Counted from the first letter of the stretch, positions 12,545-57,241 are shown. The stretch is 58,854 bases of DNA from a virus (IMGVR_UViG_3300042991_000497:1-58854), one strand, 5' to 3'. Numbers and translations: made by a program. Notes: generated by a model from the letters alone, not told the origin.

Positions 12545-12546
12545 CC

Positions 12547-41063: not shown

Positions 41064-42779
41064 TCAAGTAGACCGATTCCAGACCACGGTGCGCCGCTGG
41101 ACGGGGCGCACCTTGGCGGACGTGACTTTGCGGTCAATAAGTTCAGGGATGAAGGTCAGCGCGAGCGAGTCGGCCCTGTCTGGCGACTTGCCTCCGTTCT
41201 TCTTGATGTCCTTCTTGCTCTGCAGCTGAACGCGGAACTTGGCGTCGTTGCCGTAGTCGAGCGAGGTCAGCTCGTTGGCAAGCTCGTCGCTGTCTGGAAT
41301 CTGGCCATTCTCAAGCCAATCCCGCATCTTGCCCCAGCACTCCGACCGCTGGTTGAAATACTGCTTGTCGTCTTTCGCCGGCTGGCCCCATTGCACCGGG
41401 ATCAGGTGCGGCAACCCATGTATGCGGCGCAGCGCCGAGTCCAAGTCGGCGCCGTTGCCGATGGCGTCGTACGCAATGCACGAGATGCCTGGCTCCTTGC
41501 GGCAGATCTCGAATATGCGGCCGGCGAGGTCCACGCCGTCGAAGCCGCCCAGGGCTACCTGGTAATGCACCTTCATGCCTTGGCGCAGCGTGATGACGCT
41601 GAAGTCGTCGCCAAAGCGCGCTGGGTCGACCGCCAGGAACTTCGGAAACGCCTGGTACGTCGTGAGGCCGAGAACCCGGCGCTGGGCCTGGTACACAAGT
41701 TCGGGGCTGATGAAGTTCGCGTAGCCAGCGCGCGGGAACTTGCCCAGCACGCGCACACGCACGAAGTCGCTGTCGATGCCGTACTCGTCGATCCATGCCT
41801 GAATCTGCTTCTTGTTCGAGAAGCTCACCGCCCGGCTGTCCACTTCCGTGAACACGTTCGAGCGCGTCGGGTGCGCCCGGGTAATCCCTTGGCCAACCCG
41901 ATTCACAAAGCCGGGCTGCGAGCACTTCTTGAAGAAGAACCCGCTGGTCTTCGTCGGGTTGCCGTAGCGCAGCCAGATGATCTCAGTGTTCGCGTCCGTG
42001 AGCGCACCCTCGGCCACTTCCGAGATGATGTCGTCAATGGCCGATGCCTCGTCGAACAGCAGCAGGATGCGCGAGCCTTGGTTGTGCAGGCCGGCGAACG
42101 CTTCCGAGTTCTCCTTCGACCAGGGCACCGCGTCGACGCGCCAGCGCATCTCGCGCTCTGGGTCGTTGTCAATCGACAGCCGCGTGGCAGTGAGCTTGAA
42201 CAACGACTTGGCGATGAACATGCCGTGCCACTTGCTGAGTTCAGCCCATGTCTTCGTCTTGAGCTGGCCATCCGTGCCGGCGGTGACGACGCCGCGGGTG
42301 TCTGCGCACGTGCTGGTGGCCCACAGGATCATCCACGCGACCTGGGCCGACTTGCCAATGCCGTGGCCGCTGGCTGTGTCTTCCTGGATCACGTCGCCGG
42401 CCGCGGCGGCGCCGGCGCGTAGGCGCGTGCCAATACGGTCAAGCTGCTCGCGTTGCCACTCCTCCGGTCCATCCATATCTGCCAACGGCGTGCCCGCCTC
42501 GCCCCAAGGAAACGCCCACATCACAAACCCCAGGGGGTCGTGCCGATACCGGGCCAGGCCGTCCAACAACTCATCGAGTGGGGTGTTCTTGACTTCAGCC
42601 ACCATGAGTTCTGACCCCTTCACCGGCACCCGGTACTCCTCGCGGAATCCCGGCGGCCGGCCCCGTTGCTTCGGCGTTGCGTTCTTGTAGAGACCCAGAA
42701 AACGAGGGTCCGCAATGCCCCCCGGCTGCGACGCCTCGCTTCGGATCATGCTCCAACGCCCGGGCTTGTGCTGCGCCAT
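41064..42779 (-). CDS. terL: Terminase large subunit
   Basis: Walker A SGHGIGKS, Walker B LLLFDEAS, GNPT..SG.F, RVRVLGKFP, nuclease AVDPARFGDD, SPDRADSLALTF. Confidence 0.95.
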   Translation of the reverse strand: MAQHKPGRWSMIRSEASQPGGIADPRFLGLYKNATPKQRGRPPGFREEYRVPVKGSELMVAEVKNTPLDELLDGLARYRHDPLGFVMWAFPWGEAGTPLADMDGPEEWQREQLDRIGTRLRAGAAAAGDVIQEDTASGHGIGKSAQVAWMILWATSTCADTRGVVTAGTDGQLKTKTWAELSKWHGMFIAKSLFKLTATRLSIDNDPEREMRWRVDAVPWSKENSEAFAGLHNQGSRILLLFDEASAIDDIISEVAEGALTDANTEIIWLRYGNPTKTSGFFFKKCSQPGFVNRVGQGITRAHPTRSNVFTEVDSRAVSFSNKKQIQAWIDEYGIDSDFVRVRVLGKFPRAGYANFISPELVYQAQRRVLGLTTYQAFPKFLAVDPARFGDDFSVITLRQGMKVHYQVALGGFDGVDLAGRIFEICRKEPGISCIAYDAIGNGADLDSALRRIHGLPHLIPVQWGQPAKDDKQYFNQRSECWGKMRDWLENGQIPDSDELANELTSLDYGNDAKFRVQLQSKKDIKKNGGKSPDRADSLALTFIPELIDRKVTSAKVRPVQRRTVVWNRST

Positions 42780-43498
42780 CAGAACAATTGCTCATCTTCC
42801 TCGGCATCCAGTTGGTCGAAGAAGCATTCAGGCGGCGTCTCGGGCGTCTCGCTTTCTAGCGGCAGCCGGGCGGCGCGTACCTCGCGGTGGGCTACGTCCT
42901 CGACTTCTCGCACCGCCGGTACGCGGGTTTTGGCCGCGTTCAGCCGATCGGCCAGCATGCTTGCGATAGCGTTCACGCCGTCGCCGTCGTCGTTGATGAG
43001 TTTGAAGTGTTTGGCCAGCAGACCCAAGGCGTCCATCTTGCTGGCGAACCGGATCTTGATTACGTCGACGTGCTCTGGTTCTTTCGCGGTGCCGATGTTC
43101 TTGCGCTGCACCGTGATGCTGGTGATGGCCGCGGCCGTGTCATCGTCGATTTCGTGGACGGGTAGTAGACGCCCCTCCGCGTCGAAAATCTTGCGCACGT
43201 CGGCGTAGGCCACCCGGGCGATCTCGCGTTTCGTGCGCTCCGCGGTGACCCCGGCGGCCGATAGGCGCATGGCCACCAACTCTTGAATCCGCTTCACTAC
43301 CCGCGGTTCTTTGGCCAGGTGCCAGTACATCGTCGACTTGTGGTTCACCCCCATTGACCGCAGTGTGGCGGCCACGGTGTTGCCGTTCGCGATGCCTTGG
43401 CAGAACTCTTCCTCGAAAGCAGGCTTAACAGCCACAAGGTGTTCGGCGTTCATGTAGGGCACATACGCCGATCTGAACCCCGATTTTGGCGCCACCAT
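42779..43498 (-). CDS. terS: Terminase small subunit
   Basis: Upstream of terL; E.FC, L...P.V...I, EIARVAYAD, K..AL.LL.KH. Confidence 0.85.
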   Translation of the reverse strand: MVAPKSGFRSAYVPYMNAEHLVAVKPAFEEEFCQGIANGNTVAATLRSMGVNHKSTMYWHLAKEPRVVKRIQELVAMRLSAAGVTAERTKREIARVAYADVRKIFDAEGRLLPVHEIDDDTAAAITSITVQRKNIGTAKEPEHVDVIKIRFASKMDALGLLAKHFKLINDDGDGVNAIASMLADRLNAAKTRVPAVREVEDVAHREVRAARLPLESETPETPPECFFDQLDAEEDEQLF

Positions 43499-43654: not shown

Positions 43655-44047
43655 CTGGGACTTAGGATGCCATAGACCTAGGAGGGGGTGTGCCCCCTCT
43701 CTCAAAAGCGGGGGCGCCGCCCCTCCCCCACCCCCTCTCTCGCGCACGTCAATACTCTTCGCTGTCCGCGCTGTGCTGCGTGCCCATACCTCCGCTCAGA
43801 TCGTAGCCTTGGGCCGGCGCGACGGCGCGCTTGGCCTTGGCGGGCATAGCCGCGACGACTCGGGCGGCACGCATCGCCCCTTGCTCCGCGCTCTCCCTGA
43901 TGCAAGGGCTGCAACCCGTCGCTTGGGCACGGAAGCGCTGGGCGGGGATCGCGTCGGCCGGGCCGGTTGTATTCGGTGCTCGATTCATGGTGCTTTTCCT
44001 TGCTTTTCCTTGCTTTGGGTTATGCACCCAACGCCTCACGCGGGGCG

Positions 44048-44374
44048 TTAGTGCTCGGGGGAAGAATCTAGGGCGTGCAGCGCTGCGCGTCGGCGTTCGT
44101 TGAAGTCCAAGACGAACCGCTGAATTGCTGCGGTAAGGCTGGGCCAGTTAGTGCGGTTTGCGTCATCGTTCTTGCTTTCTTCGAGCAGCTGTGCTAGCAA
44201 GCCGGCTGCGAATTCTTTAGCCGCCTTGAGCGTATCGGGGGCGGGGACTGTCGACCGCCAGATGACCTCCTTCTTGAGCCCGCTTGGGAAGGTGGCTAGA
44301 AAGCCCCCAATCTTGGGGTCCGTGTCGTGAGTGAGCGCTCGCAATTGAGTCATGACTGTCCGAAAAGTAGACAC
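44048..44374 (-). CDS. Hypothetical protein
   Basis: 108-aa ORF preceded by TTGCCT-N17-TAGACT on the - strand. Confidence 0.55.
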   Translation of the reverse strand: MSTFRTVMTQLRALTHDTDPKIGGFLATFPSGLKKEVIWRSTVPAPDTLKAAKEFAAGLLAQLLEESKNDDANRTNWPSLTAAIQRFVLDFNERRRAALHALDSSPEH

Positions 44375-44558
44375 ACTGCCCGATAGTCTAACACCTGCCT
44401 ATTTTTTAGGCAATTCCGATGTTTTTTCGCTGTTTTCGCTGTCTCTTATGACTTTTGGTTATATAGACGCACCTTAATGGTGCGTGGCGGCTGAAACCAG
44501 CCGGCCCGCATCTATATGTGTAACAGTTGTAAGCGCGACCTGCAAAACTTTGCGTGTG

Positions 44559-44591
44559 TGCTATAGTGCTCTTACTGCAACACTTGTTGCA
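44559..44591 (+). promoter_or_regulatory. Extended -10 promoter and 16-bp operator heading the repeat-gene array
   Basis: TG-C-TATAGT at 44559-44567; TGCAACACTTGTTGCA at 44576-44591. Confidence 0.6.
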
Positions 44592-44626
44592 CCCGCCACA
44601 GCCTTCAACTCACTGGAGACCCAATC

Positions 44627-44974
44627 GTGAAGCTCCCCACTCTCAAAATGCTCGTGAAAGCCTGCGCAGACCAGCGCGCCGGATTCAAGCGTCTCTTCGG
44701 CGAGTCCGTCGGGATCACCGAGGCCCTCTGCGTCGAGCACGCGCACTACAAAGCCACCGGGCCCGCCCGGGACGCACTTGACGAGGCCACCGCGCTGGTC
44801 TGGGCCGCGCACTACAAAGCCATCGCGCCGGCCCGGGACCCACTTGACGAGGCCTGCGCGACGGACCAAGTCGCTGCGTACCGCAGAGCCCTCGCTGCGG
44901 CTCAGGGCGCGTACCTCGAAGCCCACGCACGTGCGGTCGCTCAAGTCTTCGGCTCAACGGAGAACCAATCGTGA
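44627..44974 (+). CDS. 11-aa-repeat paralogue 1 (internally deleted)
   Basis: Shares N-cap and C-cap with the family but lacks QVFDWxxAAEHLLAPAAR. Confidence 0.8.
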   Translation: MKLPTLKMLVKACADQRAGFKRLFGESVGITEALCVEHAHYKATGPARDALDEATALVWAAHYKAIAPARDPLDEACATDQVAAYRRALAAAQGAYLEAHARAVAQVFGSTENQS

Positions 44975-45474
44975 AGCTCCTCACTCTCAAAATGCTCGTG
45001 AAAGCCGGCGCAGACCAGCGCGCCGAATTCGAGCGTCTCTTCGGCGAGTCCGTCGAAGTCACCGAGGCCCTCTGCGTCGAGCACGCGCAGGTCTTTGACT
45101 GGGCTTGGGCCGCCGAGCATCTGCTCGCCCCTGCGGCCCGGGACGCGTATGACGAGGCCATCGCGCCGGTCTGGGGCGCACTTGATGAGGCCACCGCGAC
45201 GGCCCGGATCGCATATGACGAGGCCATCGCGACGGCCTGGGCCGTGTATGGCGGGGCCATCGCACCGGCCCGGGACGCGTATCACGAAGCCACCGCGCCG
45301 ACCTGGGCCGCGTACCAAGCAGCCATCGCGCCGGCCCGGATCGCGCTCAACGAAGCCACCGCGACGGCCCGGGCCGCGCGCGACGAAGCCACCGCGACGG
45401 CCCAGGGCGCGTTCAGCGAAGCCCTCGCCCGCGCGTTCGCACAAGCCTTCAACTCAACGGAGAACCAATCGTGA
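44971..45474 (+). CDS. 11-aa-repeat paralogue 2 (8 repeats)
   Basis: 57 + 8x11 + 22 = 167 aa. Confidence 0.9.
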   Translation: MKLLTLKMLVKAGADQRAEFERLFGESVEVTEALCVEHAQVFDWAWAAEHLLAPAARDAYDEAIAPVWGALDEATATARIAYDEAIATAWAVYGGAIAPARDAYHEATAPTWAAYQAAIAPARIALNEATATARAARDEATATAQGAFSEALARAFAQAFNSTENQS

Positions 45475-46040
45475 AGCTCCTCCCTCTCATCGTGCTCACG
45501 AAAGCCCGCGCAGACCAGCGCGCCGGATTCAAGCGTCTCTTCGGCAAGTCCGTCGAAGTCACCGAAGCCATCTGCGTCGAGCACGCGCAGGTCTTCGACT
45601 GGGGTGGGGCCGCCGAGCACCTGCTCGCCCCTGCGGCCCGGGCCATGTATGACGAGGCCATCGCGCCGGCCTGGGGCGCACTTGATGAGGCCACCGCGAC
45701 GGCCCGGATCGCGTACCGCAAAGCCATCGCGCCGGCCCGGGCCGCGCTCAACAAAGCCACCGCGATGGCCTGGGCCACGTATCTCGAAGCCACCGCACCG
45801 GCCTGGGCCGCGCTCAACAAAGCCACCGCGCCGACCCGGGCCGCGTACCGCAAAGCCACCGCGCCGACCTGGGCCGCGTACCGCGCAGCCATCGCGCCGG
45901 CCCGGGCCGCGCTCAACGAAGCCACCGCGACGGCCCGGGCCGCGCTCAACAAAGCCACCGCGACGGCCCAGGGCGCGTTCAGCGAAGCCCTCGCCCGCGC
46001 GTTCGCACAAGCCTTCAACTCGACGGAGAACCAATTATGA
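45471..46040 (+). CDS. 11-aa-repeat paralogue 3 (10 repeats)
   Basis: 57 + 10x11 + 22 = 189 aa. Confidence 0.9.
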   Translation: MKLLPLIVLTKARADQRAGFKRLFGKSVEVTEAICVEHAQVFDWGGAAEHLLAPAARAMYDEAIAPAWGALDEATATARIAYRKAIAPARAALNKATAMAWATYLEATAPAWAALNKATAPTRAAYRKATAPTWAAYRAAIAPARAALNEATATARAALNKATATAQGAFSEALARAFAQAFNSTENQL

Positions 46041-46474
46041 AAACCCTCACTCTCAAAATGCTCGTGAAAGCCGGCGCGGGCCAGCGCGCCGAATTCAAGC
46101 GTCTCTTCGGTGAGTCCGTCGAGATCACCGAAGCCATCTGCGTCGAGCACGCGCAAGCTTTCTACTGGGGTGGGGCCGCCGAGCACCTGCTCGCCCCTGC
46201 GGCCCGGGCCACGTATCGCGGAGCCACCGCACCGGCCCGGGCCACGTATCGCGAAGCCACCGCACCGGCCTGGGCCACGTATCGCGAAGCCACCGCGACG
46301 GCCTGGGCCGTGTATGGCGATGCCATCGCGCCGGCCCGGGCCGCGTGTCTCGAAGCCACCGCGCCGGCCTGGGCCACGTATCTCGAAGCCACCGCGCCGG
46401 CCCGTGCTGCGTATAGCGAAGCCCTCGCCCGCGCGTTCGCGCAAGCCTTCAACTCGACGGAGAACCAATCATGA
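46037..46474 (+). CDS. 11-aa-repeat paralogue 4 (6 repeats)
   Basis: 57 + 6x11 + 22 = 145 aa. Confidence 0.9.
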   Translation: MKTLTLKMLVKAGAGQRAEFKRLFGESVEITEAICVEHAQAFYWGGAAEHLLAPAARATYRGATAPARATYREATAPAWATYREATATAWAVYGDAIAPARAACLEATAPAWATYLEATAPARAAYSEALARAFAQAFNSTENQS

Positions 46475-47079
46475 AAACCCTCACTCTCAAAATGCTCGTG
46501 AAAGCCGGCGCGGGCCAGTGCGCCGAATTCGAGCGTCTCTTCGGCAAGTCCGTCGAAGTCACCGAGGCCCTCTGCGTCGAGCACGCGCAAGCTTTCTACT
46601 GGGGTGGGGCCGCCGAACACCTGCTCACGCCTGCGGCCCGGGCCACGTATCGCGAAGCCATCGCGCCGGCCTGGGCCACGTATCGCGAAGCCACCGCGCC
46701 GGCCTGGGCCGCGTATCTCGCAGCCATCGCGCCGGCCCGGGCCGTGTATGACGAGGCCACCGCGACGGGCTGGGCCGCGTTCAACGAAGCCATCGCGCCG
46801 GCCCGGGCCGCGCTCAACGAAGCCACCGCGACGGCCCGGGCTGCGTTCAACAAAGCCACCGCGACGGCCCGGGCTGCGTTCAACAAAGCCATCGCGCCGG
46901 CCCGGGCCGCGCTCAACGAAGCCATCGCGCAGGCCTGGGCCGCGTATGACGAGGCCATCGCGCCGGCCCGGGCCGCATTTGACGAGGCCCAAGCCCGCGC
47001 GTTCGCTCGCGCTTACGCCCTAACCCCTAACCCCAAACGTAAAGGAACCGACACCACCATGAAAGCCGTGATTAGCTGA
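46471..47079 (+). CDS. 11-aa-repeat paralogue 5 (10 repeats, altered tail)
   Basis: 57 + 10x11 + 35 = 202 aa. Confidence 0.9.
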   Translation: MKTLTLKMLVKAGAGQCAEFERLFGKSVEVTEALCVEHAQAFYWGGAAEHLLTPAARATYREAIAPAWATYREATAPAWAAYLAAIAPARAVYDEATATGWAAFNEAIAPARAALNEATATARAAFNKATATARAAFNKAIAPARAALNEAIAQAWAAYDEAIAPARAAFDEAQARAFARAYALTPNPKRKGTDTTMKAVIS

Positions 47080-47198
47080 CCCCACAGCCGCGCGAGAGAC
47101 CTTGACGGGGGCGCGCCATTGCCGTCGCAGCGGGCGCCCTTGACGATTCTGACTTGATCGAAGCCTGACCCTCTAACCTCAACCGTAAAGGCCACAAA

Positions 47199-47588
47199 AT
47201 GAACTTCCCCTCAATCAACATCGGCGACGAGCTGACCTGCGCCGAAACAGGAAAGCAATTCATCGCCGCACCGCAAGGCTGCACATTCAACTACGCGCGC
47301 ACACTCGCGGGCGAAATACTCAGTGATGATGGCGCGAGCATTCGCGAGAAACGCGCCCTTCTCGACCGCGCTTCGCCTTTTTACTGCTATGTATCCGGCG
47401 ACGCCCTGCACGTCACGGATTGGAAAGGCAACACGCTGGGGCGGGTATCTGAATACCGCGAGAGTCGAAATGGGTTTCACCGCTCGACGATCGCCAGGTT
47501 CCGTGTACGCGACGTGCACGGGCAACTGTGGTCTGGCCGCGGTCCGGGCCGCAGTATGTGTTGTGTTTTGCGTGCCATGAAGGGGTAA
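47199..47588 (+). CDS. Hypothetical protein inserted in the array
   Basis: SD aaagg; non-repetitive 129 aa; ends RAMKG. Confidence 0.75.
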   Translation: MNFPSINIGDELTCAETGKQFIAAPQGCTFNYARTLAGEILSDDGASIREKRALLDRASPFYCYVSGDALHVTDWKGNTLGRVSEYRESRNGFHRSTIARFRVRDVHGQLWSGRGPGRSMCCVLRAMKG

Positions 47589-47594
47589 CCAATC

Positions 47595-48089
47595 ATGAAA
47601 ACCCTCACTCTCAAAATGCTCGTGAAAGCGGAAGCCCGCGCGGGCCAGCGCCGCGCATTTGTCCGCCTTTTCGGCGAGTCCGTCGATGTCACCGAGGCCC
47701 TCTGCGTCGAGCACGCACGGGTTTTTGACTGGGACGGGGCCGCCGAGCATCTGCTCGCCCCTGCGGCCCGGGCCGCGTACAACGCAGCCACCGCGAGGGC
47801 CTGGGCCGCGCTCAAAAAAGCCACCGCGCCGGCCCGGGCCGCGTATGGCGAGGCCACCGCGCCGGCCTGGGCCGTGTACAGCGCAGCCACCGCGAGGGCC
47901 CGGATCGCGCATGACGAGGCCACCGCGACGGTCCGGGCCGCACTTGACGAGGCCATCGCGCTGGCCTGGGCCGCGCTCACCGAAGCCATCGCGACGGCCC
48001 GGGCCGCGTACCGCGCAGCCATCGCGCCGGCCCGGGCCGCGTACCTCGAAGCCCAAGCCCGCACGTTCGCACAAGCATTCAACCTCTAA
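47595..48089 (+). CDS. 11-aa-repeat paralogue 6 (8 repeats)
   Basis: 59 + 8x11 + 17 = 164 aa. Confidence 0.9.
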   Translation: MKTLTLKMLVKAEARAGQRRAFVRLFGESVDVTEALCVEHARVFDWDGAAEHLLAPAARAAYNAATARAWAALKKATAPARAAYGEATAPAWAVYSAATARARIAHDEATATVRAALDEAIALAWAALTEAIATARAAYRAAIAPARAAYLEAQARTFAQAFNL

Positions 48090-48146
48090 CCTCTAACCTC
48101 TAACCTCTAACCTCTAACCTCTAACCTCTAACCTCTAACCTCTAAC
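48081..48146. repeat. Perfect heptamer repeat (TAACCTC)x8 plus partial copies
   Basis: Full copies from 48087 to 48142. Confidence 0.95.
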
Positions 48147-48165
48147 GCTCCCTAACACCCACGCC

Positions 48166-48636
48166 ATGAGCACCCCCACCATGAACACCCCCACCATGAA
48201 CACCCCCACCATGAACACCCCGAAGACAGAAACGGAACAATTCGAGCACCACGCAGCACGCGCGTTTTTCGCGAGCGCCTGGGCCGACGCGTGCGAAGAA
48301 GCCGGGAGCGGGGATATCCTTTCGGGGCAAAAAATAATGAACATCATGCCTGTCACTATCGACCCCGCGGCTACCCATGCCGCCCGCATTCTGCGAATGG
48401 ATATCGAGCGCGTCAATGGCCAGACCATCCCTCAGTTGTTGGCTTTCGTGGCGTCGGCTGCCGCAGGCGACCGCGCACCGACGGCCGAATTCTTTGGCCA
48501 CTACGCCGCGATGCGAGCAATGGGGCATGGTGTCGGTCTGCGAGACGCATTCGGTGCCGAAGTCGACGCGGCTATCTCTGTGCCCTCCGTCGAGTTCGGT
48601 TCGCACTCACTGCAGCGCGACTACTTCGTTCTCTAA
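48166..48636 (+). CDS. Hypothetical protein with (MNTPT)n N-terminus
   Basis: 156-aa ORF; FGHY.AM.AMGHGVG motif. Confidence 0.75.
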   Translation: MSTPTMNTPTMNTPTMNTPKTETEQFEHHAARAFFASAWADACEEAGSGDILSGQKIMNIMPVTIDPAATHAARILRMDIERVNGQTIPQLLAFVASAAAGDRAPTAEFFGHYAAMRAMGHGVGLRDAFGAEVDAAISVPSVEFGSHSLQRDYFVL

Positions 48637-48662
48637 CCCCTAACCTCAAACATCAACCCGCT

Positions 48663-48809
48663 ATGTCCTACCATCAATTTGCCGCCGCTTACTTCCACGC
48701 CGGCCGTGCCTGGGCTATCGCCTGTGCAATCGAGTTCGGTGTACCCCTCTTCACCACACTGTGCTACGTGCGCAAAATATGCGCGACCGAGCGTGCCATG
48801 AAGGGGTAA
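48663..48809 (+). CDS. Small hypothetical protein (48 aa)
   Basis: MSYHQFAAAY..RAMKG*, the 3' part of ORF 48291..48809. Confidence 0.5.
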   Translation: MSYHQFAAAYFHAGRAWAIACAIEFGVPLFTTLCYVRKICATERAMKG

Positions 48810-48815
48810 CCAATC

Positions 48816-49256
48816 ATGAAAATCACCCACCCAATGCTCGTGAAAGCGAAAGCCTGCGCGGGCCCGCGCGCCGAATTCAAGCGTCTCTTCGGCAAGTCCG
48901 TCGAAGTCACCGAGGCCCTCTGCGTCGAGCACGTGCAAGTTTTTGACTGGGGTGGGGCCGCCGAGCACCTGCTCGCCCCTGCGGCCCGGGCCGCGTATGA
49001 CGAGGCCACCGCGACGGCCTGGGCCACGTACAACGCAGCCATCGCGCCGGCCCGGGCCGCGTACAACGCAGCCACCGCGACGGCCCGTGCTGCGCTCAAC
49101 AAAGCCACCGCGATGGCCTGGGCCGCGTATCTCAAAGCCACCGCACCGGCCTGGGCCACGTATCTCGAAGCCACCGCACCGGCCTGGGCCACGTATCGCG
49201 AAGCCCGCGCACGTGCGTTCGCCCAAGCCTTCAACTCGACGGAGAACCAATCATGA
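48816..49256 (+). CDS. 11-aa-repeat paralogue 7 (6 repeats)
   Basis: 58 + 6x11 + 22 = 146 aa. Confidence 0.9.
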   Translation: MKITHPMLVKAKACAGPRAEFKRLFGKSVEVTEALCVEHVQVFDWGGAAEHLLAPAARAAYDEATATAWATYNAAIAPARAAYNAATATARAALNKATAMAWAAYLKATAPAWATYLEATAPAWATYREARARAFAQAFNSTENQS

Positions 49257-50281
49257 AAACCCTCACTCTCAAAATGCTCGTGAAAGCGAAAGCCCGCGCA
49301 GACCAGCGCGCCGAATTCGAGCGCCTCTTCGGCAAGTCCGTCGAAGTCACCGAGGCCCTCTGCGTCGAGCACGCGCAGGTCTTTGACTGGGCTTGGGCCG
49401 CCGAACACCTGCTCGCCCCTGCGGCCCGGGACGCACTTGACGAGGCCTGCGCGACGGCCTGTGCCGCGTACAACGCAGCCATCGCGCCGGCCCGGGCCGC
49501 GTGTGGCGAGGCCATCGCGCCGGCCCGGGCCGCGTATGACGAGGCCACCGCGACGGCCTGGGCCACGTGCACCGCAGCCACCGCACCGGCCTGGGCCGCG
49601 TTCAGCGAAGCCACCGCGGCGGCCCGGGACGCACTTGACGAGGCCACCGCGACGGCCGGGGGCGCACTTGACGAGGCCTGCGCGACGGCCCGGGCCGCGT
49701 ATGACGAGGCCTGCGCGACGGCCCGGGGCGCGCTCAACGAAGCCACCGCGCCGGCCCGGGCCGCATTTGACGAGGCCCTCTGCGCCGAGCACGTGCCGGT
49801 CTTCGACTGGGCTTGGGCCGCCGAACACCTGCTCGCCCCTGCGGCCCGGGACGCACTTGACGAGGCCACCGCGACGGCCCGGGCCGCGTTCAGCGAAGCC
49901 ATCGCGCCGGCCCGGGCCGCGCTCAACGAAGCCACCGCGACGGCCTGGATCGCGTATGACGAGGCCACCGCACCGGCCCGGGCCGCGCATGGCGAGGCCA
50001 CCGCGACGGCCCGGGCCGTGTATGACGAGGCCACCGCGACGGCCCGGGCCGCACTTGACGAGGCCACCGCGACGGCCTGGGCCGCACTTGACGAGGCCTG
50101 CGCGCCGGCCCAGGCCTCGTATGGCGAGGCCATCGCGACGGCCCGGGCCGCGTACACCGCAGCCACCGCGACGGCCCGGGCCGCATATGACGAAGTCATC
50201 GTGCCGGCCCTGGCCACGTACAGCACAGCCCTCGCCCGCGCGTTCGCACAAGCATTCAACTCAACGGAGACCCAATCATGA
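49253..50281 (+). CDS. 11-aa-repeat paralogue 8 (fusion of two units, 10 + 11 repeats)
   Basis: 59 + 110 + 30 (internal partial N-cap) + 121 + 22 = 342 aa. Confidence 0.9.
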   Translation: MKTLTLKMLVKAKARADQRAEFERLFGKSVEVTEALCVEHAQVFDWAWAAEHLLAPAARDALDEACATACAAYNAAIAPARAACGEAIAPARAAYDEATATAWATCTAATAPAWAAFSEATAAARDALDEATATAGGALDEACATARAAYDEACATARGALNEATAPARAAFDEALCAEHVPVFDWAWAAEHLLAPAARDALDEATATARAAFSEAIAPARAALNEATATAWIAYDEATAPARAAHGEATATARAVYDEATATARAALDEATATAWAALDEACAPAQASYGEAIATARAAYTAATATARAAYDEVIVPALATYSTALARAFAQAFNSTETQS

Positions 50282-50853
50282 ACACCCTCACTCTCAGTGT
50301 GCTCCCGAAAACGAAAGCCTGCGCGGGCCAGCGGGCCAAATTCGCCCGACTTTTCGGCGAGTCCGTCGAGATCACCGAAGCCATCTGCGTCGAGCACGCG
50401 CAGGTCTTCGACTGGCCGGGGGCGGCCGACTATCTACTCACGCCTGCGGCCCAGGCCGTGTATGGCGAAGCCAGCGCGCCGGCCTGGGCCACGTATCGCG
50501 AAGCCACCGCGACGGCCCGGATCACGGACCGCAAAGCCATCGCGGCTGCCTGGGTCGCGCACGGCGTAGCCACCGGGCCGGCCTGGGCCACGTACCGCAA
50601 AGCCTGCGCGGCGGCGCGGGCCGCGTACCTTGAAGCCACCGGGCCGGCCTGGGCCACGTACCGCAAAGCCACCGCGCCGGCCCGGGCCGCGCTCAACGAA
50701 GCCACCGCGACGGCCCGGGCTGCGTTCAACAAAACCACCGCGACGGCCCGGGCTGCGTTCAACAAAACCACCGCGCCGGCCCGGGCCGCGCTCAACGAAG
50801 TCCGCGCACGTGCGTTCGCTCAAGCCTTCAACTCACTGGAAAACCAATCATGA
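50278..50853 (+). CDS. 11-aa-repeat paralogue 9 (10 repeats)
   Basis: 59 + 10x11 + 22 = 191 aa. Confidence 0.9.
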   Translation: MNTLTLSVLPKTKACAGQRAKFARLFGESVEITEAICVEHAQVFDWPGAADYLLTPAAQAVYGEASAPAWATYREATATARITDRKAIAAAWVAHGVATGPAWATYRKACAAARAAYLEATGPAWATYRKATAPARAALNEATATARAAFNKTTATARAAFNKTTAPARAALNEVRARAFAQAFNSLENQS

Positions 50854-51014
50854 AGAAGCCCCAAAAGCAACACCGCCCCACAACACGCGCGCCACACGGA
50901 GAGCAACGATTTCCGACGCGCATCGCGGCATGTGTGACCCCCGAGCAGAAACGCAAGTTCCATCGGCGTGGTGGGAGTGCCTGGCTGCGCGGATTGATTC
51001 AGGCAGCCCCCTAA
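50850..51014 (+). CDS. Small basic ribbon-helix-helix-like protein (54 aa, absent from the ORF track)
   Basis: ATGA overlap; MKKPQKQHRP..RIAACVTPEQKRKFHRRGGSAWLRGLIQAAP*. Confidence 0.6.
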   Translation: MKKPQKQHRPTTRAPHGEQRFPTRIAACVTPEQKRKFHRRGGSAWLRGLIQAAP

Positions 51015-51044
51015 CCTTTCACCCTAACCCCAAGGAGAAACCCC

Positions 51045-51368
51045 ATGAATGAACTCCGCCTACTCCACCTACTCGCGGCTTGCAAAGCGCTGTTGCGCGT
51101 CCATCCCTTCGGCCGCGAGGCCGAGGAAGTCAAAGAGGCCGTGCGCCAAATAGAGAATCCGCGTGTGTCTGAAAGGATCGAAGCCTTGTTGTCCTGCACG
51201 AACATCTCGGCCCCTGACCGCTCCCTGTGCGTGGAGTGGGCCGAACAAGCCAAAAATACCGAAACCGCGCTACTGACACTGCTGGACTGCCCAGACTTGC
51301 ACATGGACAACCTCGAAAAGGAAACCCGCAGCGCAATCGAGCGGGCCCGAAAAGTGCTCGGCATCTAG
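51045..51368 (+). CDS. Hypothetical protein
   Basis: SD aaggag plus ATG. Confidence 0.7.
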   Translation: MNELRLLHLLAACKALLRVHPFGREAEEVKEAVRQIENPRVSERIEALLSCTNISAPDRSLCVEWAEQAKNTETALLTLLDCPDLHMDNLEKETRSAIERARKVLGI

Positions 51369-51709
51369 CATGCAACTTTTTACGTGTTGTATTTACTAAG
51401 GGTTAACCCTTAGATTCGGCACGTAATTCCTTGCAATTCTGCCTCTTTTTTAAGCACTGTCACCCCTGTCACCCCTTGGCACCCCTGTTTCCTATAAAGG
51501 CACGGACGCACACGCGCTCACCGCGCCGGCGCATCGCGCACGCGCCTTCTCTATAACTTTATTTTTTAATTAGGATAAGTATAAGAACAGGGGTGACAGG
51601 GGTGACAGCACCGTAACCTGTTGATTTTGAACAGAAATATGCTGTCACCCCTCCCGGCTACTCAGGGGTGACAGGGGTGACAGGGGTGACAGGGGTGACA
51701 GGGGTGGCA
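51369..51709. other. Putative replication origin
   Basis: AT-rich tracts, 18-bp palindrome CTAAGGGTTAACCCTTAG (51396-51413), and 9-bp CAGGGGTGA iterons in both orientations at the end of the primase-helicase gene. Confidence 0.6.
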
Positions 51710-53619
51710 AGGGCTGTGCGCTCCCAGCGCCACGCCCGTTTGCCGTCTACGCGCCGCTGCCCGCTGCGCTCATACCCCAACGCGCGCAGCACCGCCCCGG
51801 CGCGCATTTGCACCCGCGCATCCATGTCCTTCGCCGCAACCCCGAGAGCACCCATGAGTACATCGGCAACCGTGAAAGGTGATTCGTCCCTCGCCCTCCC
51901 CCTCCCCCTGGACACGTCACCCGCCCGCCCCAATCCGTCACACCCGCCCAGCCATTCGGCGAATGGCCCTTCCCACTCATCGTGCCGTGTGTAGCCCCCA
52001 TGCTCGGCCTTGGCCAGCTCTTCGGCGCGCTGCCATGCCACACCCCCTACCCAATCCCCGCCTTCGGGGCCGTGCCCGGGGTCGACGGGCTTAACCGCGC
52101 CACGGAACAGCGCCGCGCCTTCGGCCCACAGTTGTTCACGCAAGCGCGCCACCTCGTCGGACTTCGCCCAGCGCACGTGTAGTGGCAGCCACCGACGATT
52201 GCCAGTCTCGTCGCTTAGCAGGTCGGTGCGGTTGGTCGTACCAACGAGCAAGCAACGCCGAGGGAACGTCGTCGCGAATTCCTTGAACTTCGGCACCCAC
52301 TTTTCGTGCGTCCGTGAAACCCACGCCTTGATCGACTCTTGATCTTTCGTGTGCAAGCCGCGCAACTCGTTGATTTCACCAACAAGCACCCCGCGCAGCG
52401 TTCGCGCAAGCGTGTCGTCGTCCTTGTTGAGATCGACTTCGGCGTAAAACAGCGGGTCTGGCACCATTGCCTTCAGGCTTTTCGTTTTACCCTCACCTTG
52501 GCCCCCTTCCAGGATCACGGCCATATCGGCCTGCACCCCCGGCTGTATGACCCGCCCGGCGAGCGCAGTCCAGATGTAGAGGCTGACAGCGCGTGCATAG
52601 GGGGTGTCAGCCGCGCCGAAGAGGTCGGTCAAGAAACGTTCGACCCGGCGCGCACCATCCCAGCTCGCTTCGACTTCCGCAAGCCACAGCTGGGCGCTGT
52701 CGAACTGGTTCTCCTCTGCGACCAGAATCGCCGCATCGCGGGCCAGCTCTTTCGGCGCGCTCTTGAACTTGCGTTTTTCGATCTCGATGCGCAAGCGCAC
52801 AAGATCCGCATCGCGCATCGGGCGCCATTGCTGCACCGCGCCAGCGGGCTGCACCATCATCTCGTCGCGGAACGTGTCATGCCCGATCTGCATGCCGGCT
52901 TCCCACTCGTCACTGAACGCGCGCACCACGTTCTCGACCGTCGGCGCTACGTAACCCTGCTTGTCGCGGGGGTGGTACGCCGGGGGCTCATATGTGGCCG
53001 GCCGCTCGCGGCCGCCGACGCCAGAAGCGGCGCCAGAAGCGCCAACAGCACCCCGCGCGGGGGCAGTAGCCACCCAGCCAGAAAAATCGCCTGTAGGCCC
53101 GGTTTGGGGGGTTGGCAAGGCCACAGACTGAGGGCCCGCCGCTCGCCCGCGCGCAGCTGCGGCCCCTTCCAACTCAAAGCCATCCACGTCCGGCACGCCC
53201 GCCGTCGCCGGGTTGGCCCAACCGGCCGCGCCTGCGGCTTTGAACAGCGTCGCGGCCGTGATGCCCCCGGCCCGGTTCTGGTCGGCGTAGACCCAAACTT
53301 TCTCTTCGGCGTAACCCGGCACGTGTTTTGAGCTGCGCTCGCTCCACGCCTCGAACTTGGCCAGCCCCTCCGCGCTCCCGCCCGTAGCCCAGTGCACGGC
53401 GTAAGCCAGATCACGCCAACTGTCGTAGCCCACCTCCTCGCCGGTGTTGGGGATCGCGTCCAGCGCGGCCCACAACGTCGGTAGCTCGGTGTCCGGTAGA
53501 CCCGGCGCCCGCGCCGCGTGCTCGACCACGGGCCGCGCGGCACGCGGCACGCCGGGAGACACGCGCCAGAAGCCGGGGGCGAGGATGGCTTCGCGAGGGA
53601 GAACGTGGAGTGTCACCAT
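51658..53619 (-). CDS. PriCT-2 plus VirE/VapE-like helicase
   Basis: GYDSWRDL..A....G...F..WS..S (PriCT-2); ALAGRV..PG..D...ILEGGQGEGKT; EINEL; FPRRC..VGTTN...L.DETGNRRWLP. Confidence 0.9.
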   Translation of the reverse strand: MVTLHVLPREAILAPGFWRVSPGVPRAARPVVEHAARAPGLPDTELPTLWAALDAIPNTGEEVGYDSWRDLAYAVHWATGGSAEGLAKFEAWSERSSKHVPGYAEEKVWVYADQNRAGGITAATLFKAAGAAGWANPATAGVPDVDGFELEGAAAARGRAAGPQSVALPTPQTGPTGDFSGWVATAPARGAVGASGAASGVGGRERPATYEPPAYHPRDKQGYVAPTVENVVRAFSDEWEAGMQIGHDTFRDEMMVQPAGAVQQWRPMRDADLVRLRIEIEKRKFKSAPKELARDAAILVAEENQFDSAQLWLAEVEASWDGARRVERFLTDLFGAADTPYARAVSLYIWTALAGRVIQPGVQADMAVILEGGQGEGKTKSLKAMVPDPLFYAEVDLNKDDDTLARTLRGVLVGEINELRGLHTKDQESIKAWVSRTHEKWVPKFKEFATTFPRRCLLVGTTNRTDLLSDETGNRRWLPLHVRWAKSDEVARLREQLWAEGAALFRGAVKPVDPGHGPEGGDWVGGVAWQRAEELAKAEHGGYTRHDEWEGPFAEWLGGCDGLGRAGDVSRGRGRARDESPFTVADVLMGALGVAAKDMDARVQMRAGAVLRALGYERSGQRRVDGKRAWRWERTALATPVTPVTPVTPVTPE

Positions 53620-54209
53620 AGCTGTTCCTCTTCGTTTTCACCCGGCTCACTCAAAGCCAAGGGCGTGCTCTGGCCGGCCAGCGGCAGGATGAACATGGAC
53701 CCGTGCCGGCCGAGGGCAACCTCGTCTTGCTTCGGGAACACTTCGACAGTGCCGGCCACCACCCCGCTCGTGCCGTCGCGCAACCCGCACGAGGCCAGCA
53801 CCCGCCGCAGGAACTCGCGCACGCTGTAGCAGTCCTGGGGCTCATCCCAGAGCAAGATAAGGTGCACCCCCCGTCCGCCCGAGCTGCGGAAAAGCATCGG
53901 CGCCATCCCCCACACGAACTCCAGCTCGTCGACGACTTTGGCCACGGCCGCGCTCATGCCCGCCCAGTCCGTTTCGCCTTTGTGCGAGTCGAAGTCGAGC
54001 AGACCAACGAGCGTGACGCTCTCCCCCGCGCGTATAGGGCACACGCCACGGGCGGGACCGCCGTTGAGGTGCCGGGCGACGCGCTCGGCAGTCAGCGGCT
54101 GCGCGGTCCACGTGGGGGCTTCACCGAGCCGGCGCACCGCTGTCACATCGACGCGCACGCGGTCGGTGAGGGGCCTCAAGCCACGGATCAAGGGATCGTT
54201 GGGGTTCAT
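53613..54209 (-). CDS. Archaeo-eukaryotic-type primase catalytic domain (separate ORF)
   Basis: HLNG, GLLDFDSH (DxD), RSSGGRGVHL, VEVFPKQ..G...LPL. Confidence 0.8.
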   Translation of the reverse strand: MNPNDPLIRGLRPLTDRVRVDVTAVRRLGEAPTWTAQPLTAERVARHLNGGPARGVCPIRAGESVTLVGLLDFDSHKGETDWAGMSAAVAKVVDELEFVWGMAPMLFRSSGGRGVHLILLWDEPQDCYSVREFLRRVLASCGLRDGTSGVVAGTVEVFPKQDEVALGRHGSMFILPLAGQSTPLALSEPGENEEEQLW

Positions 54210-56195: not shown

Positions 56196-56435
56196 ATGAA
56201 AACTCTCGTGCGTGAAGGGCCGACGCTGTTGCTTGGCGCGTTCATCGTCCTCGCGGCGTTGAAGGTGCTGGGCTATACCGACTGGTCGTGGTTGGCGGTA
56301 TGTGCACCACTGTTGCTTCCTACCGTGCCCGCTTCGGTGTTGGTTGTTTTCGTCGTCTTCAGGTTTGCGTACTGGGTATCGGTGGGGGCTGTCGAGATCA
56401 CATTCAACGAACTTTCAGATTGGCTCAAAAAATGA
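56196..56435 (+). CDS. Small membrane protein
   Basis: SD aggag; F..LKVLGY.DWSW..V..PL. Confidence 0.75.
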   Translation: MKTLVREGPTLLLGAFIVLAALKVLGYTDWSWLAVCAPLLLPTVPASVLVVFVVFRFAYWVSVGAVEITFNELSDWLKK

Positions 56436-57241
56436 CTCTCATGCAAACGTCAACGCCCGTCGTACTGCACGAAGACGCGCACGCGCGGCTGAGCCCGAGC
56501 GGGTCGAAGAAATGGTTCGCGTGCCCGGGGTCGTTGACCTTGGAAGAACCGATCCCGAACGAAGCCAGCAGCTATTCGGACGCAGGCACAGCGATGCACG
56601 ATATCGCAGCCCGCTGTCTCACCGAGCATCGCCGGGCGGCTCACTATGTCGGCGGGTACGTCGTCGTGAGCCCGCCGCACGAGATCGAACAGCGCAAAGT
56701 CGAGTTCGACGCCGAGATGGCTGAGCTGGCACAGGGCTACGTCGACGCGATGCGATTCCAGGCCCTCGGCGCCACCGCACACTGGGTCGAGCAGCGCGTC
56801 GACTTCTCCGAGTTTTGCGGCGTGCCCAAGCAATTCGGCACGGCCGACTTCATCGTCTTGGATGAGCGAGGGGGCGCGGTGTGGGTGAGCGATCTGAAGA
56901 CTGGCTACAAGCCGGTCGATGTGCGCAAGAACACACAGCTGATGATCTACGCGCTGGGCGCGCTGGCCAAACTGCGCGATGAAGACATAGCCAACCTGCG
57001 GGAAGACGAAGACGAAGACGAAGCCAACCTGCGGGAAGACGAAACTGCCGAAGACGAAGACGAAGACGAAGACGAAGACGAAGACGAAGACGAAGACGAA
57101 GACGAAGACGAAGACGAAGACGAAGACGAAGACGAAGCCAACCTGCGGGAAGACGAAACTGCCGAAGACGAAGACGAAGACGAAGACGAAGCCAACCTGC
57201 GGGAAGACGAAATCGCCGAAGACGAAGAGGAATTGTTCTGA
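56432..57241 (+). CDS. DUF2800 / Cas4-like PD-(D/E)xK nuclease, N-terminal half with poly-acidic tail
   Basis: HARLSPS...W..CPGS, GTAMH, VEQRVDFS, FGTADF, DLKTG, NTQL.IYALGAL, then (ED)n; ATGA start. Confidence 0.85.
   Translation: MTLMQTSTPVVLHEDAHARLSPSGSKKWFACPGSLTLEEPIPNEASSYSDAGTAMHDIAARCLTEHRRAAHYVGGYVVVSPPHEIEQRKVEFDAEMAELAQGYVDAMRFQALGATAHWVEQRVDFSEFCGVPKQFGTADFIVLDERGGAVWVSDLKTGYKPVDVRKNTQLMIYALGALAKLRDEDIANLREDEDEDEANLREDETAEDEDEDEDEDEDEDEDEDEDEDEDEDEDEANLREDETAEDEDEDEDEANLREDEIAEDEEELF
56990..57230 (+). repeat. (GAAGAC)n microsatellite (longest run 14) interleaved with four ANLREDE units
   Basis: Directly visible in the sequence. Confidence 0.95.

What the first reader, a model, noticed from the sequence alone, without database searches (positions are those of the whole stretch)
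44627..50853. Array of nine paralogous modular 11-aa-repeat proteins: a candidate new diversifying system
Seen: over 10% of the genome encodes one family. Each has a 57-59-aa N-cap (LTLKMLVKA..QRA.F.RLFG.SVE.TEA.CVEHA..FDW..AAEHLL.PAAR), then about 5, 8, 10, 6, 10, 8, 6, 10+11 and 10 repeats of 11 aa, then a C-cap (ARAFAQAFNSTENQS). The cap DNA (GGAGAACCAATC-RTGA) also supplies the next gene's SD and start. In each repeat, positions 6, 8 and 10 are nearly always Ala. Positions 7 (T/I/C), 9 (P/T) and 11 (R/W) toggle, and positions 3-5 vary (YDE, LDE, LNE, LNK, FNK, YRE, YRK, YLE, YNA, YGE). No two genes have the same repeat order and all frames are intact. Known: 11-residue periodicity gives 11/3 amphipathic helices or hendecad coiled coils. 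Inference: a recombination-shuffled early repertoire, TALE-like in logic though not in fold, binding variable host targets (defence proteins, membrane or nucleic acid) or co-assembling into heteropolymers. I do not recognise a described system matching it.
Basis: partly seen in the sequence, partly recalled or inferred. Interest (0 to 1): 0.9.

Follow-up and report, generated by a model that had tools for sequence, protein, structure and literature searches.

The report
Nine-gene phage helical-hairpin repeat family
A complete 59-kb phage genome carries nine tandem copies of a gene for a small protein predicted to be a globular head bearing a helical hairpin stalk built from 11-residue units; the family is widespread in uncultured phages, unnamed, and of unknown function.

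Summary
Nine + strand paralogues (44627-50853) each have a ~57-aa N-cap, 11-aa Ala-rich units in perfect register, and a C-cap whose codons carry the next gene's Shine-Dalgarno and start.

It is not unique. The N-cap profile finds 808 cluster representatives in public metagenomes. Two other complete viral genomes carry 8 and 10 copies. No member matches Pfam, PHROGs, NCBIfam, PADLOC, PDB sequences or 50,697 GenBank phage records.

AlphaFold2 (pLDDT 94) predicts a small alpha/beta head and one long antiparallel helical hairpin. The hairpin lengthens with unit number (arms of 53/49 residues versus 63/63), so the C-cap ends beside the head.

Across the family the N-cap to C-cap spacing is quantised in 11-residue steps (55 of 89). 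In one lineage a Pro/Gly/Ser-rich insert sits mid-repeat.

I found no dedicated diversifying machinery and no reverse transcriptase. Variation fits unequal recombination among 33-bp units and paralogues: gene 8 is a fusion, and two relatives with identical flanks have 10 versus 5 units.

Function is unknown. My best inference is early, cytoplasmic host-interaction proteins. This is a new, unnamed variant of helical repeat proteins, of moderate to high interest.

The parts
44375..44626 (+). Leader of the array. It is an AT-richer intergenic stretch that ends in a relic cap/junction (codes ..AFNSLETQS, then GAGACCCAATC-GTG), which supplies the SD and start of gene 1.
   Evidence: sequence and three-frame translation; junction motif at 44616-44630. 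That a promoter lies here is inference only: one search found no sigma-70-like site on the + strand.
44627..44974 (+). Paralogue 1 (115 aa). The N-cap is truncated (it lacks the FDW..AAEHLL part), the units are degenerate, and the cap is intact.
44971..45474 (+). Paralogue 2 (167 aa, pI 4.6). It has an N-cap, 8 units and 2 cap units. It was modelled by AF2 as a head plus hairpin.
45471..46040 (+). Paralogue 3 (189 aa, pI 9.9). It has 10 units and 2 cap units. AF2 gives a longer hairpin.
46037..46474 (+). Paralogue 4 (145 aa). It has 6 units and 2 cap units.
46471..47079 (+). Paralogue 5 (202 aa). It has 11 units. Its C-cap tail is replaced from about 47008 by sequence holding CTAACCC heptamers.
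47199..47588 (+). Unrelated inserted ORF (129 aa, no family hit). It ends in the 32-nt junction that precedes gene 6.
47595..48089 (+). Paralogue 6 (164 aa). It has 8 units. The C-cap is cut short (..AQAFNL*) by the heptamer tract.
48081..48146 (+). Perfect 7-bp tandem repeat AACCTCT x 9.4, at the left border of the second insertion.
48166..48636 (+). Unrelated inserted ORF (156 aa; phrog_15314, unknown function). Its N-terminus is coded by a 15-bp repeat.
48816..49256 (+). Paralogue 7 (146 aa). It has 6 units and 2 cap units, and keeps the family's conserved Cys of the 'AC' motif.
49253..50281 (+). Paralogue 8 (342 aa, pI 4.5), a fusion of two copies. Its layout is N-cap, 10 units, a partial second N-cap joined at an ..EAL|C.. 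microhomology, then 11 units and 2 cap units.
   Evidence: direct reading of the sequence.
50278..50853 (+). Paralogue 9 (191 aa). It has 10 units and 2 cap units. Its cap again supplies the SD and ATG for a 54-aa ORF (50850-51014).

Best explanation
The locus is an in-genome tandem expansion of an unnamed, phage-borne gene family.

Structure (predicted). Each product is a small cytoplasmic protein. A ~57-aa alpha/beta head (the N-cap) is followed by one long antiparallel helical hairpin made of 11-residue (hendecad) Ala-rich units. The C-cap (..ARAFAQAF..) closes the second helix, so the chain ends beside the head. Stalk length is set by the number of units. In the two models the helices are 53 and 49 residues in gene 2, and 63 and 63 in gene 3.

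Expression (inferred from the sequence). The genes form one + strand operon. Six junctions have 4-nt ATGA/GTGA overlaps, and the SD lies in the preceding cap codons, which suggests translational coupling.

Evolution (shown by comparison). Diversity arises from ordinary homologous or unequal recombination among the 33-bp units and among paralogues. It does not come from a dedicated mutator.

Function (inference). These are early or accessory host-interaction proteins, for counter-defence or takeover. The conserved head gives the fold or a common partner. The stalk offers surfaces that differ in length and charge (pI 4.5-9.9).
For: Architecture and register.

AF2 models: gene 2 has pLDDT 94.3 and pTM 0.82, with helices 54-106 and 112-160. 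Gene 3 has pLDDT 94.4 and pTM 0.79, with helices 54-116 and 120-182.

Sequence-only support for a hairpin:
- N-cap to C-cap spacing falls in the same 11-residue register in 55 of 89 anchored family members, where 1/11 is expected (p~1e-34).
- The G411/L032 paralogues carry a Pro/Gly/Ser-rich non-repeat insert in the middle of the repeats.
- The same unit type sits between unrelated N- and C-terminal segments in other proteins: P0012, P0029, P0033 with DUF7666, P0197, P0198.
- The rare non-Ala residues at positions 8 and 10 fall in the central units of genes 2, 3, 6 and 9, where AF2 puts the turn.

In-genome expansion: the 8 window N-caps form one group on a 93-row tree (1 change, SH-aLRT 80, 0 of 500 shuffles as low).

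Recombination:
- Gene 8 is a fusion.
- Shared exact stretches of 61-70 nt occur between paralogues.
- L010 and L011 have 500 nt upstream that are 100% identical, an N-cap that is 93.6% identical, and 10 versus 5 units.

Recurrence: 11 of 35 viral contigs have 2 or more copies within +/-2 kb. Other records hold 8, 10, 3 and 3 copies.

Context:
- In the window the array lies between terminase and primase/helicase.
- In G411 it heads the strand that continues into primase, DNA polymerase and exonuclease, divergent from TerL.
- It lies next to primase or helicase in L013, L011 and G410.

Selection: N-cap dN/dS is 0.10-0.76. Within units, pN/pS is low at positions 8, 5, 3 and 10, and high at 4, 7, 9 and 11.
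Against: - No experiment or expression data exist. The one public run that holds the stretch is DNA.
- The hairpin rests on AF2, which favours compact monomers. Its confidence on repeats can be inflated, and the coordinates could not be inspected.
- Pro sits at unit position 9 in 40 of 89 units, inside the predicted helices.
- Ala at position 8 is conserved (87/89) although by my hendecad assignment it faces away from the hairpin seam. This hints at a further interface (oligomers) that the model lacks.
- Six of the nine window paralogues lack the Cys of the 'AC' motif, which is at least 90% conserved in the family. Some copies may therefore be decaying rather than specialised.
- The per-position pN/pS treats non-independent units as samples and is not a formal test.
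- The functional claim has no direct support. There are no hits in PADLOC or in any named family.
- In the window the downstream primase gene is on the opposite strand, so co-transcription with replication genes holds only in relatives.
Confidence: 0.45

Rival explanations
1. A dedicated diversity-generating system actively rewrites the units at high frequency. Candidates are DGR-like mutagenic retrohoming, a shufflon or invertase, or programmed cassette exchange.
For: - No two genes share unit order, and 80 of 89 units are distinct.
- Close relatives with identical flanks differ in unit number.
- Conserved junction motifs bound every cassette.
- Heptamer tracts mark the borders of inserted ORFs.
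Against: - No reverse transcriptase was found in the complete 58,854-bp record, while the control rang in 3 of 14 genomes.
- The only recombinase found is a tyrosine integrase with an arm-binding domain at 7985-9100, 36 kb away.
- All copies are in direct orientation.
- The main codon toggles are ACC/ATC, CCG/ACG and CGG/TGG, which is not an adenine-directed pattern.
- N-cap dS of 0.10-0.62 between paralogues indicates old, gradually diverging copies.
Confidence: 0.05
2. The proteins do not fold as monomeric hairpins. They are extended helices that assemble into homo- or hetero-oligomeric coiled coils or filaments, so the array provides subunits of a co-assembly.
For: - Two Ala stripes per unit (positions 6/10 and 8/1) suggest more than one helix-helix interface.
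- Translational coupling suggests co-expression of adjacent genes.
- Adjacent acidic/basic pairs occur: genes 2/3 have pI 4.6/9.9 and genes 8/9 have pI 4.5/9.8.
Against: - N-cap and C-cap co-occur, and their spacing is quantised.
- A mid-repeat Pro/Gly/Ser insert occurs in one lineage.
- Many phages carry a single copy: 24 of 35 contigs within the DNA examined.
- AF2 monomers are confident.
Confidence: 0.15
3. They are virion or assembly proteins built from coiled coils, such as scaffold, decoration, fibre or ejection components.
For: - Weak, non-significant BFVD matches include tape-measure and internal virion proteins (best E 0.035).
- In three genomes the array abuts the terminase genes.
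Against: - The array lies outside the structural module and on the opposite strand to it.
- In relatives it lies among replication and recombination genes.
- Copy number varies from 1 to 10, which is odd for a stoichiometric virion part.
- There is no structural PHROG hit.
Confidence: 0.1
4. They are surface-active amphipathic 11-mer repeat proteins, either lipid- or membrane-binding like apolipoproteins, synucleins and LEA proteins, or ice-binding like Ala-rich type I antifreeze proteins.
For: - The 11-residue period, with Pro in about every second unit in many homologues.
- Ala content of 24-37%, and Thr at position 7 in 50 of 89 units.
- The holding run is labelled a cave metagenome.
Against: - The apolar face is mostly Ala, Thr and Tyr, with few large aliphatic residues.
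- There is no signal peptide-like N-terminus.
- There are no Pfam hits to apolipoprotein, LEA or synuclein families among 58 members at E<=0.001.
- The conserved head and C-cap argue for a closed folded unit.
Confidence: 0.05
5. The array is an assembly artefact or non-coding repeat DNA.
For: - Related contigs often end inside such genes, so repeats of this kind do break assemblies.
- Long antisense ORFs exist in the region.
Against: - No exact repeat of 77 nt or more occurs in the array, and only five of 61-70 nt.
- All nine frames are open with GC3 above GC2.
- N-caps are under purifying selection.
- Hundreds of homologues use the same frame.
- Arrays of 8 and 10 copies occur in independent assemblies.
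Confidence: 0.02

Closest known systems
Other members of the same unnamed viral family (N-cap + 11-aa units + C-cap), e.g. P0047-P0196 and IMG/VR records G410 and G411
   Same: - Same N-cap, with E down to 1.7e-21 against the profile.
- Same 11-residue register between the caps.
- Same tandem arrays with overlapping starts, of 8 and 10 copies.
- Same replication-side or early genomic context.
   Different: - Each lineage has its own unit consensus: AAYDEATAPAR here, AEYERVTAPAW or RAYDAATAEAR elsewhere.
- Most members have 2-9 unit totals, against 8-12 here.
- Six of the nine window copies lack the family's conserved Cys.
- None is named or characterised.
Long antiparallel coiled-coil hairpins of solved proteins (colicin E3/E2 receptor-binding domain, SMC/JetABC arms, YscO, ESCRT-III, AcrA hairpin)
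   Same: The predicted shape is the same, two long antiparallel helices. These are the top rows of Foldseek and VIA-align.
   Different: None is significant. The best Foldseek E is 0.66. The best VIA Z is 8.9, below the roughly 13 that the tool's notes advise for long helices. There is no sequence similarity, no 11-residue Ala-rich unit and no small head closed by a C-cap.
Hyperactive Ala-rich type I antifreeze protein 'Maxi' of winter flounder (recalled from memory, not from a call)
   Same: An 11-residue periodicity, richness in Ala, and a fold into a long helical hairpin.
   Different: - It did not appear in the PDB sequence or fold searches.
- The window proteins have 24-37% Ala, aromatic residues in each unit, and a globular head.
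- They are encoded by a phage and lack a signal peptide.
Apolipoprotein / alpha-synuclein / LEA-type 11-mer amphipathic repeats
   Same: The 11/22-residue periodicity, with Pro punctuation in many homologues.
   Different: - There is no Pfam hit.
- The apolar face is weak.
- The caps are conserved and their spacing is quantised, which points to a closed fold.
TALE repeats
   Same: Tandem helical units with a few variable positions, and repeat number changing by recombination.
   Different: - The units are 11 aa rather than 33-35 aa.
- There is no two-residue code, and the variable positions are coupled.
- The predicted fold is a two-helix hairpin, not a superhelical solenoid.
DUF7666 (PF24703) phage proteins
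   Same: One homologue of the repeat part (P0033) carries DUF7666 at its N-terminus (E 2.2e-9), so the repeat module is shared.
   Different: The window proteins have no DUF7666 hit at E<=1. Their head is a different domain.

Membership tests
Diversity-generating retroelement (DGR) | A reverse transcriptase encoded near the variable gene | tested here: not met
   PF00078 found no match at E<=0.01 in the whole 58,854-bp record. The control rang in 3 of 14 genomes.
Diversity-generating retroelement (DGR) | A template/variable repeat pair that differs at adenines of the template | tested here: inconclusive
   No TR/VR search was run. The main codon toggles in the units (ACC/ATC, CCG/ACG, CGG/TGG) are not adenine-directed.
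Hendecad (11/3) coiled coil | An 11-residue sequence periodicity without indels | tested here: met
   a 33-nt period in every gene, and 89 canonical units in register.
Hendecad (11/3) coiled coil | Long alpha-helices packed against each other | tested here: met
   AF2 gives two helices of 53/49 and 63/63 residues with pLDDT 94. This is prediction only, and the coordinates and core positions were not inspected.
Hendecad (11/3) coiled coil | Apolar residues at the a, d, e and h positions | tested here: inconclusive
   My assignment a=3 (Y/L/F), d=6 (A), e=7 (T/I), h=10 (A) fits the counts. It is an inference from a helical wheel, not from a model.
TALE repeat proteins | Repeats of 33-35 residues with a hypervariable di-residue | tested here: not met
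   The units are 11 aa. Variable positions 7/9 and 11/2' are coupled.
Type I antifreeze proteins | Very high Ala content with Thr at i, i+11 (feature recalled, not from a call) | tested here: not met
   Ala is 24-37%, and Thr is at position 7 in 50 of 89 units. There is no PDB sequence hit to such proteins.
Pfam DUF7666 (PF24703) | A match to the family model above its 27-bit cut-off | tested here: not met
   None of the nine paralogues matches at E<=1. The homologue P0033 does (38.1 bits).
Imm5_like (PF21805) and YdhT_N (PF27195), leads from the protein atlas | A match of the N-cap to the family | tested here: inconclusive
   PF21805 found no match in the record at E<=10. PF27195 is not in the local library. 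hhalign of the N-cap profile against E. coli YdhT gave probability 0.05%.
Known anti-phage defence or anti-defence families (PADLOC-DB) | A match to any model | tested here: not met
   No hit at E<=0.1 for the three paralogues scanned, out of nine, or for the two inserted ORFs.

The most novel reading that the evidence does not exclude
This would be a previously unrecognised, widespread phage protein architecture: a small head carrying a hendecad hairpin whose length changes in quantised 11-residue steps. Different phage lineages would repeatedly amplify it into arrays of 8-10 genes as a repertoire of counter-defence or host-targeting proteins. Repeat slippage and paralogue recombination would let the repertoire change quickly. 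That would be a phage counterpart of the repeat-based variable receptor or antigen families of cells.
Probability: 0.2. Interest if true: 0.8.

Novelty: new variant of a known kind. Interest (0 to 1): 0.55.

Why it matters
If the reading holds, a large family has gone unnamed. It has 808 cluster representatives at 50% identity and is seen only in uncultured viruses.

It has an unusually simple, tunable design. Stalk length is set by the number of 11-residue units, and the surface by four or five variable positions.

Three independent phage lineages devote 8-10 genes to it. Repeated amplification in small genomes suggests selection for a set of variants, which is the signature expected of an arms-race interface. 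The family is therefore a good candidate for new phage-host interaction biology.

It may also serve as a protein-engineering scaffold of adjustable length.

If instead it proves to be a mere structural filler, the finding is an ordinary lineage-specific gene expansion.

Tried and rejected
Nothing was laid, so there is no read-level check of the assembly.
- The look-up of sequencing runs: one DNA holder, possibly the source sample, and no RNA holder listed.
- Complex prediction (two copies of gene 2):
  - No result on oligomers.
- megablast of 44000-52000 against GenBank phages: no match.
- tblastn of gene 7, P0087 and P0106 against the same 50,697 records: no match.
- Genome-contig scan: 2 loci. 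One is a Hyphomicrobium MAG contig with a nearly repeat-less member, and one is spurious.
- 401 genomes of that class: 2 with a match, one of them the centre itself.
- PDB sequence searches: nothing below E 0.01.
- Foldseek on PDB and BFVD: 0 hits at E<=0.001.
- VIA-align wide: only generic hairpins, Z<=8.9, and only residues 53-167 were effectively tested. The head's fold therefore remains unsearched.
- Atlas leads YdhT_N and Imm5_like: not supported.
- hhalign of the N-cap against the P0012-type N-domain: probability 21%, inconclusive.
- Rfam: 0 hits. tRNAs: 0.
- Parity of unit totals:
  - The totals are even, as I read, in 7 of 7 single-domain window genes, counting partial or divergent last units in genes 5 and 6.
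  - In the family sample the split is only 34 even against 21 odd, which is not significant.
  - The script printed totals one too high because of my formula. The figures given here are corrected.
- Literature searches:
  - 'DUF7666' gave 0 papers.
  - 'hendecad' + 'bacteriophage' gave 8, none relevant by title or abstract.
  - '11-residue repeat' / 'phage' / 'alanine-rich' gave 141, and the 15 listed were irrelevant.
  - The multigene-family and coiled-coil-hairpin terms gave 9.
  - The 11-mer and undecapeptide terms gave 11.
  - I saw search listings and abstract starts only, and read no paper.

Full report
**1. The observation**

The window is a complete IMG/VR virus record of 58,854 bp. 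Nine + strand ORFs between 44627 and 50853 are paralogues. A search of the record with gene 2 finds 18 matching stretches, all within 44630-50850.

The N-cap is followed by 11-aa units that stay in perfect register. The protein ends with ..ARAFAQAFNSTENQS.

Tandem Repeats Finder reports period-33 arrays in every gene, with 65-86% matches.

Of 101 parsed units, 89 are canonical:

| Position | Residues |
|---|---|
| 6 | Ala 86/89 |
| 8 | Ala 87/89 |
| 10 | Ala 80/89 |
| 7 | T 50 / I 24 / C 6 |
| 9 | P 40 / T 31 / R 10 |
| 11 | R 45 / W 30 / F 8 |

The cap-derived junction (GAGAACCAATC-RTGA type) occurs 10 times in the window, only in the array, against 0.11 expected. It gives six 4-nt stop/start overlaps.

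- The genes themselves make up 8.5% of the genome. Only the span makes up 10.6%.
- Gene 1 is degenerate.
- Genes 5 and 6 have lost the normal cap tail.
- Gene 8 is a fusion of two copies at an ..EAL|C.. microhomology between a cap unit and an N-cap.
- The 'toggles' are coupled.

**2. Real genes, and probably a real assembly**

- GC3 exceeds GC2 in all nine frames.
- N-cap dN/dS is 0.10-0.76 in 28 pairs.
- Position 8 keeps Ala through synonymous changes.
- The long antisense ORFs are by-products of a stop-poor repeat.
- The array holds no exact repeat of 77 nt or more, and only five of 61-70 nt. Ordinary assemblers can therefore resolve it.

I could not check reads.

**3. What it belongs to**

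None of the nine proteins matches Pfam (E<=1) or PHROGs (E<=0.01). The three paralogues scanned also have no hit in NCBIfam or PADLOC. Of 58 family members scanned, 0 hit Pfam at E<=0.001, and only six scattered single hits appear in PHROGs.

Yet the family is large:
- The N-cap profile finds 808 representatives at E<=1e-3 and 112 at E<=1e-10 among 1.84 billion.
- The best 150 are mostly 60-200 aa with the N-cap at the N-terminus.
- 83 of those 150 show lag-11 or lag-22 self-identity of at least 0.3 downstream.
- The protein atlas places the nearest clusters in viruses (73-98% of members with a record).

The family seems confined to uncultured viruses:
- Three members found nothing in 50,697 GenBank phage records.
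- Only 2 of 401 bacterial genomes of one class had a match, one of them the centre itself.

The 11-aa unit also occurs attached to other N- and C-terminal segments, including DUF7666.

**4. Predicted structure**

AlphaFold2 with a 58-sequence alignment gave two models:

| Gene | pLDDT | pTM | Helix 1 | Helix 2 | Turn |
|---|---|---|---|---|---|
| 2 | 94.3 | 0.82 | 54-106 | 112-160 | 107-111 |
| 3 | 94.4 | 0.79 | 54-116 | 120-182 | 117-119 |

In both, residues 1-51 form a small alpha/beta head. The two long helices turn near the middle of the repeat region, so the stalk grows with unit number and the C-cap lies at the head end of the second helix.

Four sequence-only observations agree with a hairpin:
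- (a) In 55 of 89 family members where both caps could be anchored, the spacing between caps has exactly the window's phase modulo 11 (p~1e-34).
- (b) In the G411 lineage a Pro/Gly/Ser-rich non-repeat segment sits in the middle of the repeats.
- (c) In unrelated proteins the repeat module is flanked by both N- and C-terminal non-repeat parts. This is as expected for an inserted protrusion.
- (d) The rare non-Ala residues at positions 8 and 10 fall in the central units of genes 2, 3, 6 and 9.

Fold searches return only generic hairpins without significance. The head's fold was not effectively searched.

My helical-wheel assignment is a=3 (Y/L/F), d=6 (A), e=7 (T/I), h=10 (A). It is inference. 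It leaves the conserved Ala at position 8 on the far side, so a further interface (oligomerisation) is possible. The complex predictor was unavailable.

**5. How the array arose and varies**

On a tree of 93 N-caps the eight full window N-caps form one group (SH-aLRT 80; 0 of 500 label shuffles as low). This indicates an in-genome expansion.

Other lineages did the same. In a motif-based sample, 43 of 80 fetched loci (35 contigs by my count) hold the N-cap, and 11 contigs have 2 or more copies within +/-2 kb. Whole-record searches give:

| Record | Size and completeness | Copies |
|---|---|---|
| G410 | 48,099 bp, 99% complete | 8 |
| G411 | 40,050 bp, 100% complete, array across the ends | 10 |
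| G412 | fragment | 3 |
| G413 | fragment | 3 |

Each lineage has its own unit consensus.

L010 and L011 share 500 identical bases upstream. They differ by 6.4% in the N-cap DNA and have 10 versus 5 units. The locus is therefore a hot spot.

I found no dedicated machinery. There is no reverse transcriptase, all copies are direct, and the only recombinase found is the integrase at 7985-9100. Unequal homologous recombination among 33-bp units and paralogues suffices to explain the variation.

**6. Context and likely role**

The phage encodes DNA polymerase, helicase, an SSB, an integrase, head, portal and terminase genes, and an AEP-primase/VapE helicase. Its TerL is at most 45.9% identical to that of any GenBank phage.

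The array is a separate + strand block between TerS (42779-43498, - strand) and the primase/helicase (51658-53619, - strand).

In relatives:
- The family gene lies beside primase, helicase, exonuclease and pentapeptide-repeat genes.
- In G411 it heads the strand that continues into primase, DNA polymerase and exonuclease, divergent from TerL.

The paralogues differ strongly in charge (pI 4.5-9.9). Within units, pN/pS is high at positions 4, 7, 9 and 11 and low at 8, 5, 3 and 10. This is a rough measure on non-independent units.

From this I infer early, cytoplasmic host-interaction proteins, for counter-defence or takeover. This step has no direct evidence.

**7. Verdict**

The structural intuition (hendecad helices) and the claim that no described family matches both hold up. 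The 'diversifying system' and 'TALE-like' readings do not.

The locus is one of several large arrays of an unnamed, widespread viral family with a simple length-tunable hairpin design. That makes it a new variant of helical repeat proteins. It is worth experimental follow-up, but it is not categorically new.

Noticed in passing
window 48081-48146; also 47020-47032 and 48633-48645: A perfect 7-bp tandem repeat AACCTCT x 9.4. The related motif CTAACCYCTAACC occurs 10 times in the window (0.02 expected), only at three places. Each place is the left border of a non-family ORF inserted in the array. These may be recombination or insertion scars, or a slippage-prone tract.
   Followed up: partly
window 47570-47601 and 48791-48822: An identical 32-nt junction (it ends ..GGGGTAACCAATCATGAAAA) precedes genes 6 and 7. 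The two inserted segments therefore share a right end but carry different cargo: ORF 47199-47588, versus ORF 48166-48636 plus a small ORF.
   Followed up: partly
window 48154-48221: A 15-bp repeat x 4.5 codes a reiterated NTPTM peptide at the N-terminus of ORF 48166-48636 (phrog_15314, unknown function).
   Followed up: no
window 56288-57241 and 57241-58080: Two adjacent ORFs match the first half (positions 1-164) and second half (170-363) of Pfam DUF2800, and both match the exonuclease phrog_69. This looks like a split or frameshifted gene.
   Followed up: no
window 33796-34638 (- strand): An ORF inside the structural module carries a PASTA domain (PF03793, E 1.3e-16). That is a peptidoglycan-binding type of domain and is unusual in a phage virion region.
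   Followed up: no
window 7985-13955: Next to the integrase lies a block of sugar- and methyl-transferase-like genes: sialyltransferase-like phrog_4603, a GT9 heptosyltransferase-like domain, and three methyltransferases. This may be a surface-modifying conversion module.
   Followed up: no
window N-caps (about codons 12-16 of each gene): The Cys of the 'AC' motif is at least 90% conserved across the family. Here it is kept only in genes 1, 7 and 9. Gene 5 has a Cys three residues later.
   Followed up: partly
L011:6738-7460 and L013:6507-7115: In related phages a pentapeptide-repeat protein (phrog_7713) lies just upstream of the family gene.
   Followed up: no
P0059 (314 aa): One family member is fused, or was called together with, an N-terminal HNH homing-endonuclease-like domain (PADLOC HEase, E 2.2e-5).
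   Followed up: no
window 53613-54209 (- strand): The small primase-like ORF matches the AEP domain of the TOTE conflict system (PF22548, E 3.7e-11), next to the VapE/PriCT-2 helicase-primase.
   Followed up: no
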